The translations under genes were made by a program, and so were the position numbers. A model generated the notes under the pieces. That model was not told the origin of the DNA. It made no database searches and was given only the letters and a program-made list of their open reading frames with translations. Positions 19,161 to 22,100 of a stretch of 64,000 nt of DNA are shown here, piece by piece. Origin of the DNA: the human T2T-CHM13v2.0 reference genome, Homo sapiens. Where the stretch lies: assembly GCF_009914755.1 (NCBI RefSeq), contig NC_060933.1; one strand, 5' to 3'. Within the stretch, counting starts at the first letter, position 1. Each line of letters starts with the position of its first letter.

Positions 19161-22100
19161 ATGACAGGATCAAATTCACACATAACAATATTAACCTTAA
19201 ATGTAAATAGGCTAAATCCTCCAATTAAAAGACACAGAGTGGCAAATTGGATAAAGAGTCAAGACCCATCAGTGTGCTGTATTCAGCAGACCCTGCTCAC
19301 GTGCAGAGACACACATAGGCTCAAAATAAAGGTATGGAGGAAGGTCTGCCAAGCAAAGGGAAAACAAAAAAAAAGCAGGGGTTGGAATCCTAGTCTCTGA
19401 TAAAACAGACTTTAAACCAACAAAGATCAAAAGAGACAAAGAAGGCCATTACATAATTGTAAAGGGATCAATTCAACAAGAAGAGTTAAATATCCTAAAT
19501 ATATATGCACCCAGTACAGGAGCACCCAGACTCATAAAGCAAGTCCTTAGAGGTGTACAAACAGACTTAGACTTCCACACAATAATAATGGGAGATTTTA
19601 ACACACCACTGTCAACATTAGACAGATCAACAAGACAGAAAGTTAAAAAGGATATCCAGGAATTGAACTCAGCTCTGCACCAAGCAGACCTAATAGACAT
19701 CTACAGAACTCTCCACCCCAAATCAATAGAATATATATTCTTCTCAGCACCACATCACACTTACTCCAAAATTGACCACATAGTTGGAAGTAAAGCACTC
19801 CTCGGCAAACGTAAAAGAACAGAAATTATAACAAACTGTCTCTCAGACCACAGTGCAATCAAACTAGAACTCAGGATTAAGAAACTCACTCAAAACTGCT
19901 CGACTACATGGAAACTGAACAACCTGCTCCTGAATGACTACTGGGTACATAACAAAATGAAGGCAGAAATAAAGATGTTCTTTGAAACCAATGAGAACAA
20001 ACACACAACATACCAGAATCTCTGGGACACATTTAAAGCAGTGTGGAGAGGGAAATTTATAGCACTAAATGCCCACAAAAGAAAGCAGGAAAGATCTAAA
20101 ATTGACACCCTAACATCACAATTAAAAGAACCAGAGAAGCAAGAGCAAACACATTCAAAAGCTAGCAGAAGGCAAGAAATAACTAAGATCAGAGCAGAAC
20201 TGAAGGAAATAGAGACACAAAAAAACCCTTCAAAAAATCAATGAATCCAAGAGCTGGTTTTTTGGAAAGATCAACAAAATTGATAGACCACTAGCAAGAC
20301 TAATAAAGAAGAAAAGAGAGAAGAATCAAATAGAAACAATAAAAAATGACAAAGGGGATATCACCACCGATCCCACAGAAATACAAACTACCATCAGAGA
20401 ATACTATAACACCTCTACACAAATAAACTAGAAAATCTAGAAGAAATGGATAAATTCCTCGACACATACATCCTCCCAAGACTAAACCAGGAAAAAGTTG
20501 AATCTCTGAATAGACCAATAACAGGCTCTGAAATTGAGGCAATAAGTAATAGCTTAACAACCAAAAAAAGTCCAGGACCAGATGGATTCACAGCCCAATT
20601 CTACCAGAGGTACAAGGAGGAACTGGTACCATTCCTTCTGAAACTATTCCAATCAACAGAAAAAGAGGGAATCCTTCCTAACTCATTTTATGAGGCCAGC
20701 ATCATCCTGATACCAAAGCCTGGCAGAGACACAAACAAAAAAGAGAATTTTAGACCAATATCCTTGATGAACATTGATGCAAAAATCCTCAATAAAATAC
20801 TGGCAAACTGAATACAGCAACACATCAAAAAGCTTATCCACCATGATCAAGCGGGCTTCAGCCCTGGGACGCAAGGCTGGTTCAACATACGAAAATCAAT
20901 AAATGTAATCCAGCATATAAACAGAACCAATGACAAAAACCTCATGATTATCTCAATAGATGCAGAAAAGGCCTTTGACAAAATTCAAAGACGCTTCATG
21001 CTAAAAACTCTCAACAAATTAGGTATTGATGGCACCTATCTCAAAATAATAAGAGCTATCTATGACAAACCCACAGCCAATATCATACTGAATGGACAAA
21101 AACTGGAAGCATTCCCTTTGAAAACTGGCACAAGACAGGATGCCCTCTCTCACCACTCCTATTCAACATAGTGTTGGAAGTTCTGGTCAGGGCAATCAGG
21201 CAGGAGAAGGAAATAAAGGGCATTCAATTAGGAAAAGAGGAAGTCAAATTGTCCCTGTTTGCAGATGACATGATTGTGTATTTAGAAAACCCCATCGTCT
21301 CAGCCCAAAATCTCCTTAAGCTGATAAGCAACTTCAGCAAAGTCTCAAAATCAAGATTTTGTATCTTGATTTGATACAAAATCAAGATTTTGTATCTTGA
21401 TTTGATACAAAATCAAGATTTTGTATCTTGATTTGATACAAAATCAAGATTTTGTATCTTGATTTGATACAAAATCAAGATTTTGTATCTTGATTTGATA
21501 CAAAATCAAGATTTTGTATCTTGATTTGATACAAAATCAAGATTTTGTATCTTGATTTGATACAAAATCAAGATTTTGTATCTTGATTTGATACAAAATC
21601 AAGATTTTGTATCTTGATTTGATACAAAATCAAGATTTTGTATCTTGATTTGATACAAAATCAAGATTTTGTATCTTGATTTGATACAAAATCAATGTGC
21701 AAAAATCACAAGCATTCTTATACACCAATAACAGACAAACAGAGCGCCAAATCATGAGTGAACTCCCATTCACAATTGCTTCAAAGAGGATAAAATACCT
21801 AGGAATCCAACTTACAAGGGATGTGAAGGAACTCTTCAAGGAGAACTACAAACCACTGCTCAATGAAATAAAAGAGGATACAAACAAATGGAAGAACATT
21901 CCATGCTCATGGGTAGGAAGAATCAGTATCATGAAAATGGCCATACTGCCCAAGGTAATTTATAGATTCAATGCCATCCCCATCAAGCTACCAATGACTT
22001 TCTTCACAGAATTGGAAAAAACTACTTTAAAGTTCATATGGAACCAAAAAAGAGCCCGCATTGCCAAGTCAATCCTAAGCCAAAAGAACAAAGCTGGAGG

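What the first reader, a model, noticed from the sequence alone, without database searches (positions are those of the whole stretch)
21346..21695. Perfect 11-copy hairpin minisatellite built from the L1's own sequence inside the RT domain
Seen: 11 identical 31-bp units replace the normal L1 'AGGATAC' in gtctc[aggatac]aaaatcaatg, ~80 bp after the FADD motif. Each unit is made only of the local L1 word GATACAAAATCAA plus its reverse complements (GATTTTGTATC and TTGATTT). This gives two overlapping inverted repeats per period: GATACAAAATC-aa-GATTTTGTATC (11-bp stem) and AAATCAAGAT-tttgt-ATCTTGATTT (10-bp stem). Inference: the unit arose by repeated fold-back template switching and was then amplified in tandem. 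Zero divergence between copies inside a host L1 full of stops and frameshifts implies recent or ongoing expansion. The result is a de novo, AT-rich, cruciform-prone VNTR in intron 1 of a duplicated neuronal gene. It could be a paralog or haplotype tag, a fragile point, or a structured element in the pre-mRNA.
Basis: partly seen in the sequence, partly recalled or inferred. Interest (0 to 1): 0.8.

Follow-up and report, generated by a model that had tools for sequence, protein, structure and literature searches.

The report
L1-derived hairpin minisatellite, paralog-specific copy number
A dead L1 element in intron 1 of CNTNAP3B carries a real, perfect 11-copy 31-bp hairpin-forming tandem repeat that arose once from the L1's own sequence and stands at 1, 5 and 11 copies in the three chr9 gene copies, which makes it a tidy example of how a minisatellite is born but not a new kind of element.

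Summary
Window 21346-21695 is 11.3 perfect copies of a 31-bp unit, 76 nt after the FADD codons of a broken + strand L1. It replaces AGGATAC of a canonical L1 36-mer found 4,306 times in this genome. All 31 unit positions are tiled by pieces of the L1 word GATACAAAATCAA or its reverse complement.

New here:
- The unit occurs genome-wide only at three paralogous chr9 loci, each between exon 1 and exon 2 of a CNTNAP3-family copy: one unit at 39.29 Mb, 5 at 78.84 Mb, 11 here.
- So the rearrangement predates the segmental duplications, and copy number changed afterwards.
- One template switch cannot make the one-unit state. Exactly one two-step path can, among 609,799 intermediates tried.
- That state carries 9-nt direct repeats 31 bp apart around a hairpin, a ready substrate for slippage.

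"Recent or ongoing" expansion is overstated: zero substitutions has probability 0.20 even if the array dates from the 3B/78.84 Mb split. Fragility, polymorphism and function are untested. I read it as a neutral, TE-derived, AT-rich minisatellite of a known kind.

The parts
21346..21695 (+). 31-bp minisatellite, 11.3 perfect copies (11 whole units at 21346-21686, then the 9-nt start of a twelfth, which is also the resuming canonical L1 sequence). GC is 7 of 31.
21373..21427 (+). Example of the most stable structural module: a 55-nt hairpin across two units (11 bp + 2x2 AA loop + 11 bp, 7-nt loop TTGATTT). DNA dG is -17.4 kcal/mol. It recurs every 62 nt along the array.
   Evidence: (I2)
21346..21354 (+). 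Left copy of the 9-nt direct repeat CAAAATCAA that bounds every unit. The last copy is at 21687-21695. In the one-unit paralog the two copies sit 31 bp apart, and the left one has one mismatch.
21258..21269 (+). FADD codons of the L1 ORF2 reverse transcriptase, 76 nt upstream of the array.
17870..23543 (+). Host element: a near full-length, dead L1, antisense to CNTNAP3B. ORF1 pieces lie at 18416-19097, endonuclease at 19330-20244, RT at 20812-21374, and the ORF2 remainder to about 23313 in 9 or more open pieces. An A-rich tail lies at 23513-23543. The ends are approximate: the 5' end is taken from the mask table in the finding.
7256..31555 (-). Intron 1 of CNTNAP3B, which contains the L1 and the array. 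The pre-mRNA carries the reverse complement of the array.
   Evidence: gene table in the finding; exon homologs; RNA fold

Best explanation
This is a neutral, L1-derived, AT-rich minisatellite whose history can be read from three paralogs.

(1) After the L1 inserted, and before the CNTNAP3 segmental duplications, two short template-switch events in DNA synthesis rewrote 9 nt of the RT region.
- First event: copying ran to the end of GATACAAAATC, added TTGATTT (the reverse complement of AAATCAA), and resumed upstream at GATAC.
- Second event: after GTCTCA, 15 nt were copied as the reverse complement of a word that exists only after the first event, and copying resumed at ATCTTGATTT through a 3-nt ATC overlap.
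- Product: the one-unit state, a hairpin flanked by 9-nt direct repeats (CAAAATCAA) 31 bp apart.

(2) After the copy at 39.29 Mb split off, replication slippage or unequal exchange between those direct repeats duplicated the 31-bp interval. The hairpin would have stabilised the slipped intermediate. Further slippage between whole units gave 5 copies at 78.84 Mb and 11 here.

(3) The array has no function.

Shown: the array, its composition, its uniqueness, the 1/5/11 series and the tree of the paralogs.
Inferred: the two switch events, their order, slippage as the amplifier, and neutrality.
For: - Perfect array.
- Canonical L1 state at this site in 4,306 other places in the genome.
- Unit fully tiled by the local word and its reverse complement; 0 of 200,000 shuffles do so.
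- Unit and junction words found only at C9:43.669, 78.840 and 39.291 Mb. Of 17 hits at up to 3 mismatches, all 17 lie at these loci.
- The 39.29 Mb copy reads flank + one unit + flank and has no 31-bp array by TRF. The 78.84 Mb copy has 5.3 perfect copies.
- 10-kb alignment: this window versus 78.84 Mb 0.97% (97 of 9,995); versus 39.29 Mb 1.92%; 78.84 versus 39.29 Mb 1.89%. Private sites number 47, 45 and 138, which gives ((3B, 78.84), 39.29).
- Alignment gaps at the array are exact multiples of 31: 310 bp, and 62 + 124 bp.
- Exhaustive four-point search: no single event makes the one-unit state, and exactly 1 two-step path does, among 609,799 distinct intermediates.
- Its second event is of type 1-3-4-2, which made up 23% of human-chimp events in PMC5453318 (passages).
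- Predicted hairpin stability rises from -1.8 kcal/mol (canonical L1, 45 nt) to -10.2 (one-unit copy, 69 nt). The whole array folds at -102.5 against -39.3 +/- 3.8 for shuffles, z = -16.5.
- Slippage between flanking direct repeats of 5-20 bp is an established model for starting TE-derived tandem repeats (PMC3389668, section 3.4).
Against: - No outgroup was available. The polarity of the copy-number series is therefore not fixed: the single unit at 39.29 Mb could be a contraction.
- The first inferred switch event has order 4-3-1-2. PMC5453318 reports that orders in which point 4 precedes point 1 were not seen in its human-chimp scan.
- Only one of the four switch junctions shows microhomology (3 nt); the others show none (my reading).
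- The search was limited to a 49-nt local reference, inverted fragments of 30 nt or less, and two steps. Paths with three or more steps, or other mechanisms, are not excluded.
- The canonical state was taken from other L1 copies, not from this element's own ancestor.
- Neutrality is assumed from position (deep intron, dead L1) and was not tested.
- Gene conversion between paralogs could distort the divergence figures.
Confidence: 0.7

Rival explanations
1. The array was already multi-copy before the first duplication, and the single unit at 39.29 Mb is a secondary contraction. The series would then read many to 1, not 1 to many.
For: Hairpin-forming arrays delete readily. FRA16B constructs gave four deletions and one expansion in the most unstable clone (PMC2875025, passage), and inverted triplications were removed by slippage over hairpins (PMC13334657, abstract). 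No outgroup was available to polarise the change.
Against: The one-unit state is exactly what two templated events produce from canonical L1, so it must have existed at some time. An array as old as the 39.29 Mb split would expect 3.3 substitutions in 341 bp, so P(0) = 0.04. Homogenisation could, however, erase them.
Confidence: 0.15
2. The rearranged proto-unit was made by the L1 reverse transcriptase itself, through template jumps or snap-back synthesis during the original retrotransposition, and not by later DNA replication. Amplification followed as in the main account.
For: All three carriers descend from one L1 insertion, so the rearrangement could be as old as the insertion. The four-point description does not say which polymerase acted. 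That reverse transcriptases switch templates is recalled knowledge and was not tested here.
Against: None of the genomic places matching the junction words (up to 2 mismatches) lies outside these paralogs, although 4,306 L1 copies carry the canonical word. This site is therefore not a recurrent jump point for the L1 enzyme. That finding is weak evidence either way.
Confidence: 0.1
3. The array is a functional structured element: a hairpin cluster in the CNTNAP3B pre-mRNA that yields small RNAs or editing substrates, or a regulatory or fragile DNA structure.
For: The transcribed (minus) strand folds as RNA into five 22-bp hairpins, -154.1 kcal/mol against -59.1 +/- 4.3 for shuffles, z = -21.9. 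Template-switch hairpins in introns have given rise to primate miRNAs (PMC10710096, abstract).
Against: All 111 Rfam matches lie far below their gathering scores (best 32.8 against 51.5, and 32.4 against 90.8). The stems are 22 bp with an internal loop, against the preferred stem of about 35 bp stated in PMC10710096. Copy number differs freely among paralogs (1, 5, 11). No expression data were available.
Confidence: 0.03
4. The array is an assembly artefact of the T2T-CHM13 sequence.
For: No reads could be inspected here. Perfect repeats can be mis-sized in assemblies.
Against: The same unit stands at three separate loci with different copy numbers and identical junctions. The array is only 350 bp, far shorter than a long read (this last point is inference).
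Confidence: 0.02

Closest known systems
TE-derived minisatellites (Ahmed and Liang 2012, PMC3389668; abstract and section 3.4 read)
   Same: A tandem repeat lying inside a transposable element and built from its sequence. It expanded by local duplication of units. The proto-unit is bounded by short direct repeats, as in the Haber-Louis slippage model cited there.
   Different: Here the unit is not a plain stretch of the TE. It is a rearranged mosaic of direct and inverted copies, and the direct repeats that seed slippage were themselves created by that rearrangement.
Short template-switch mutations, four-point model (Loytynoja and Goldman 2017, PMC5453318, passages; PMC10710096, abstract)
   Same: The novel sequence is an exact reverse complement of adjacent sequence. 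It creates perfect hairpins in one stroke and lies in an intron. The second inferred event is of the common 1-3-4-2 type.
   Different: One event does not suffice. The first inferred event (4-3-1-2, direct-inverted-direct) belongs to a class that paper did not observe. The product was afterwards amplified in tandem, which those papers do not describe, as far as the passages I read go.
FRA16B 33-bp AT-rich minisatellite (PMC2875025, passages)
   Same: Unit length is about 31-33 bp. Both are AT-rich, are predicted to fold into hairpins, and change by whole units. Eleven copies matches the normal-allele range of 7-12.
   Different: This unit is 77% AT, and the FRA16B unit as printed there is richer in AT. 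No expanded allele, no cytogenetic fragility and no replication stalling are known or were tested for this array.
Small inverted triplications, DUP/INV/DUP (PMC13334657, abstract only)
   Same: The first inferred event gives a direct-inverted-direct arrangement through two template switches. Such structures form hairpins and are unstable by slippage.
   Different: The scale differs: 11/7/11 nt here, against about 148/160/148 bp there. Those events were described in yeast and in cancer genomes, whereas this is a germline event fixed in a gene family.

Membership tests
Minisatellite (tandem repeat, unit 10-100 bp) | Head-to-tail copies of a unit of tens of bp | tested here: met
   Period 31, 11.3 copies, 100% matches; 11 exact copies, 0 expected by chance
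TE-derived tandem repeat | Lies within a TE, and the unit sequence derives from that TE | tested here: met
   L1 ORF1, endonuclease and RVT_1 hits flank it. 31 of 31 unit positions are tiled by the local L1 word or its reverse complement. The canonical word occurs 4,306 times in the genome.
Slippage-initiated minisatellite (Haber-Louis model as cited in PMC3389668) | Proto-unit flanked by short direct repeats of 5-20 bp | tested here: met
   9-nt CAAAATCAA stands at both ends of each unit. In the one-unit paralog the two copies match at 8 of 9 positions.
Template-switch mutation (four-point model) | The novel segment is the exact reverse complement of adjacent sequence, with no untemplated bases | tested here: met
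   A two-step, fully templated path exists; tiling
Template-switch mutation (four-point model) | A single switch-and-return event explains the change | tested here: not met
   A single event from canonical L1 to the one-unit state is impossible in the search
Template-switch mutation (four-point model) | Ancestral state established from an orthologous outgroup | not testable with these tools
   No primate genomes are held. Other L1 copies (L012, L013) were used as a proxy.
VNTR (copy number variable among individuals) | Different allele lengths in a population | not testable with these tools
   Only one haploid genome is held. Variation among paralogs (1, 5, 11) is shown, but this is not the same thing.
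Rare fragile-site AT-rich minisatellite (FRA16B/FRA10B type) | AT-rich unit of about 30-40 bp with predicted secondary structure | tested here: met
   31 bp, 24 of 31 A/T; DNA fold z = -16.5
Rare fragile-site AT-rich minisatellite (FRA16B/FRA10B type) | Expansion to hundreds or thousands of copies with cytogenetic fragility | tested here: not met
   The largest array in this genome has 11 copies. Fragile FRA16B alleles reach up to 2,000 copies (PMC2875025). Other individuals were not tested.
Known RNA family or miRNA precursor (Rfam 15) | Score at or above the family's gathering threshold | tested here: not met
   0 of 111 matches reach the gathering score

The most novel reading that the evidence does not exclude
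The locus preserves three stages of a minisatellite's birth. A double template switch created, in one small patch, both a hairpin and the flanking direct repeats that slippage needs. The unit then went from 1 to 5 and 11 copies in sister paralogs. If this route is general, it could account for part of the 94% of TE-derived tandem repeats whose initiation PMC3389668 could not explain. The array would also be a hypervariable, paralog-specific marker in a region of chr9 that is hard to genotype.
Probability: 0.35. Interest if true: 0.45.

Novelty: new member of a known kind. Interest (0 to 1): 0.3.

Why it matters
The value is mostly as a worked example. The same genome holds the canonical L1 sequence, the single rearranged unit and two expanded arrays. 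The initiation of a minisatellite can therefore be reconstructed base by base and then tested in ape and pangenome assemblies.

On the practical side, the copy number (1, 5, 11) distinguishes the three CNTNAP3-family copies in a pericentromeric duplication block where reads are hard to assign.

It does not change what is known about L1, CNTNAP3B or fragile sites.

No paper found here describes this array. The searches were CNTNAP3B with VNTR (2 papers hold both terms, 1 listed, which concerns an AluY insertion) and CNTNAP3B with 'tandem repeat' (6 papers hold both terms, 5 listed, none about it by title or abstract start). Supplementary VNTR catalogues were not searched.

Tried and rejected
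- The 22-nt canonical L1 word has no match in the window at up to 3 mismatches, so the genome was searched instead.
- A fourth chr9 paralog at 41.32 Mb was checked. Its homology stops at the equivalent of window 24367, so it lacks the L1 and the array, although it keeps an exon 1 homolog.
- A single four-point template switch was tested and rejected.
- By hand I tried several other routes: a 13-bp tandem duplication followed by inversion, palindromic addition at a hairpin-capped break, and four switches in one pass. None was simpler than the two-step path, and none rests on a tool result.
- Two scripts failed or were wrong, and their output is not used: an assertion failed because my flank was too short; a logic error accepted arbitrary insertions as slippage, giving 268 false solutions. 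One search is the corrected run.
- The Rfam scan gave only sub-threshold hairpin look-alikes.
- Literature searches for this array found nothing specific.
- I did not assign an L1 subfamily. No repeat library is held, and I built no consensus. Only pairwise identity to two arbitrary L1 copies was measured: 93.0% and 94.0% over about 2 kb.
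Full report
**1. The observation**

- Window 21346-21695 is a perfect tandem array: period 31, 11.3 copies, 100% matches, no indels.
- It holds 11 exact copies of the unit, where dinucleotide shuffles give none.
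- The sequence reads GTCTC, eleven units, then AAAATCAATG.
- It sits on the + strand inside a near full-length but dead L1.
  - Open pieces upstream match the L1 ORF1 domains, the endonuclease, and RVT_1 in two pieces (profile 31-121 and 107-181 of 205).
  - ORF2 is broken into at least nine open pieces.
  - An A-rich tail lies at 23513-23543.
- The FADD codons are at 21258-21269, so the array begins 76 nt after them.
- The L1 is antisense to CNTNAP3B and lies in its intron 1 (gene table supplied with the finding).

**2. The normal L1 state and the make-up of the unit**

- The undisrupted 36-mer, the two flanks joined by AGGATAC, occurs 4,306 times exactly in the same genome; the backwards-read control gives 0. 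Two such copies (L012, L013) show it in the same context.
- All 31 positions of the unit are covered by exact pieces of 7 nt or more of the 13-nt L1 word GATACAAAATCAA or its reverse complement. None of 200,000 shuffled units reaches this; the best covers 25 of 31.
- The most stable fold is a different one: a 55-nt hairpin across two units, dG -17.4 kcal/mol as DNA.
- The whole array folds at -102.5 kcal/mol as DNA against -39.3 +/- 3.8 for shuffles (z = -16.5).
- The transcribed strand as RNA folds at -154.1 against -59.1 +/- 4.3 (z = -21.9).
- The unit is 24 of 31 A/T.

**3. Where else the unit occurs**

- The window's genome could be searched. With up to 3 mismatches the unit has 17 matches, all on contig 9:
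  - 11 in this window;
  - 5 exact copies at 78,840,517-78,840,671 on the minus strand;
  - 1 copy with one mismatch at 39,291,497-39,291,527.
- The two novel junction words, at up to 2 mismatches, also occur only at these loci. Their backwards-read controls gave 2 chance matches each.
- The rearrangement is therefore a one-off, and not a property of L1 copies in general.

**4. The three loci are paralogs**

- A 3-kb flank matches 78.84 Mb at 99% and 39.29 Mb at 98% over its full length. It matches 41.32 Mb only from query position 968 onward (40 of 1,277 candidates were scored).
- The 41.32 Mb copy ends at the equivalent of window 24367 and lacks the L1.
- Exon 1 homologs lie at 43.68, 78.83, 39.30 and 41.31 Mb. 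Exon 2 homologs lie at 43.655, 78.855 and 39.28 Mb. All three carriers therefore lie in intron 1 of a CNTNAP3-family copy.
- From recalled coordinates, I take the 39.29 Mb copy to be CNTNAP3 and the 78.84 Mb copy to be a 9q paralog. No tool named them.
- The 78.84 Mb copy has 5.3 perfect copies between identical junctions.
- The 39.29 Mb copy reads left flank, one unit, right flank, with one A-to-T change in the unit and one G-to-A change in the flank. TRF sees no 31-bp array there.

**5. Order of events**

- Over a 10-kb alignment:
  - this window differs from the 78.84 Mb copy at 97 of 9,995 sites (0.97%);
  - it differs from the 39.29 Mb copy at 188 of 9,791 sites (1.92%);
  - the other two differ at 184 of 9,739 sites (1.89%).
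- Private sites number 47, 45 and 138. If rates are equal, the tree is ((this window, 78.84 Mb), 39.29 Mb).
- The alignment gaps at the array are 310 bp, and 62 + 124 bp, all multiples of 31.
- The rearranged unit is shared by all three copies, so it predates the first duplication.
- Copy number differs between the two closest copies, so it changed at least once after their split.
- With the recalled calibration of about 1.2% human-chimpanzee divergence for 6-7 million years, the splits would be roughly 5 and 10 million years old. Gene conversion could make both look younger.
- The L1 itself is older: it is 93.0% and 94.0% identical to two arbitrary L1 copies, with 11-12 gap openings over 2 kb.

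**6. How the unit arose**

- I searched all changes of the four-point template-switch kind: a prefix, an inverted copy of a nearby fragment of 30 nt or less, and a suffix, with pure slippage included. The reference was a 49-nt canonical sequence.
- No single event gives the one-unit state. Among 609,799 distinct intermediates, exactly one gives it in a second event.
- Event 1 keeps the sequence up to the end of GATACAAAATC, adds TTGATTT (the reverse complement of AAATCAA), and resumes upstream at GATAC. The switch points are in order 4-3-1-2, a direct-inverted-direct arrangement.
- Event 2 keeps the sequence up to GTCTCA and replaces 9 nt by 15 nt (AAATCAAGATTTTGT). Those 15 nt are the reverse complement of a word that exists only after event 1. 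Copying then resumes at ATCTTGATTT with a 3-nt ATC overlap. The order is 1-3-4-2.
- No untemplated base is needed.
- The 1-3-4-2 type made up 23% of human-chimpanzee events in PMC5453318. That paper did not observe orders in which point 4 precedes point 1 (passages), which counts against event 1 as drawn. Direct-inverted-direct structures made by two switches are described at a larger scale as small inverted triplications (PMC13334657, abstract).
- The path is a model. It is limited to the search space named, and it uses other L1 copies as the ancestor.

**7. How it expanded**

- The one-unit state carries CAAAATCAA at both ends, 31 bp apart, around an 11-bp hairpin with a 7-nt loop. Predicted DNA stability goes from -1.8 kcal/mol for the canonical 45 nt to -10.2 for the 69 nt of the one-unit copy.
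- Slippage or unequal exchange between flanking direct repeats of 5-20 bp is the Haber-Louis model, cited for TE-derived repeats in PMC3389668 (section 3.4). It would give two units, after which whole-unit slippage is easy.
- In the 39.29 Mb copy the left direct repeat and the 10-bp stem each carry the A-to-T mismatch. That mismatch may have kept the copy at one unit, or it may be later. This point is speculation.

**8. How recent is the expansion**

- At 47 of 9,995 private sites per lineage, 341 bp expects 1.6 substitutions since the split from the 78.84 Mb copy, so P(0) = 0.20.
- For both arrays together P(0) = 0.10. Since the older split it is 0.04.
- The array is younger than the L1 and probably younger than the first duplication. 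Nothing here shows that it is still changing.

**9. Function and comparison with known kinds**

- Nothing points to a function.
  - The array is about 10 kb from exon 1 and 14 kb from exon 2, in a dead antisense L1.
  - All 111 Rfam matches lie far under their thresholds.
  - The RNA stems (22 bp with an internal loop) are shorter than the roughly 35 bp preferred for miRNA precursors (PMC10710096).
- TE-derived minisatellites are common: 23% of mini- and satellites (PMC3389668, abstract).
- In size and make-up the array resembles a normal allele of the FRA16B AT-rich minisatellite (33-bp unit, 7-12 copies). Fragile alleles there have up to 2,000 copies (PMC2875025).
- I therefore file it as a new member of a known kind. 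Its one attractive feature is that the canonical, one-unit, 5-unit and 11-unit states all survive in one genome.

**10. What stays open**

- The polarity of the copy-number series, which needs outgroups.
- Variation among people.
- Read-level support for the assembly.
- Any structural or RNA effect.
- Supplementary VNTR catalogues of published papers were not searched and may list this locus.

Noticed in passing
window about 18737 (L1 ORF1 region); L014: The 39.29 Mb paralog has 195 bp here that both this window and the 78.84 Mb copy lack. In this window the Transposase_22 match starts only at profile position 58 of 98. That fits a deletion inside L1 ORF1 in the common ancestor of the two younger copies.
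   Followed up: partly
window 31556-31972 (CNTNAP3B exon 1): Exon 1 is only 90-94% identical among the paralogs, and its length differs (417 against 426-438 bp). The surrounding intron is 98-99% identical. An indel-rich or repeat-rich stretch in the 5' end of the gene is likely.
   Followed up: no
G000:C9:41314326-41321959 (L011): A fourth, truncated, inverted duplicate holds an exon 1 homolog and about 7 kb of intron 1. It ends at the equivalent of window 24367, just short of the L1. This marks a duplication breakpoint about 800 bp beyond the L1 tail.
   Followed up: partly
G000:C16:82372519-82372759: The exon 2 region matches chr16 at 72% identity. This is presumably another member of the contactin-associated protein family. 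The name is recalled, not tested.
   Followed up: no
window 21346-21695: The net change against canonical L1 is +334 nt here (a frameshift) but +24 nt in the one-unit copy, which would have been in frame. The point is trivial, because the L1 ORF2 is broken in many other places.
   Followed up: no
window 23369-23390 and 23513-23543: A G-rich GGGGAGG run and an A-rich tail mark the 3' end of the L1.
   Followed up: no
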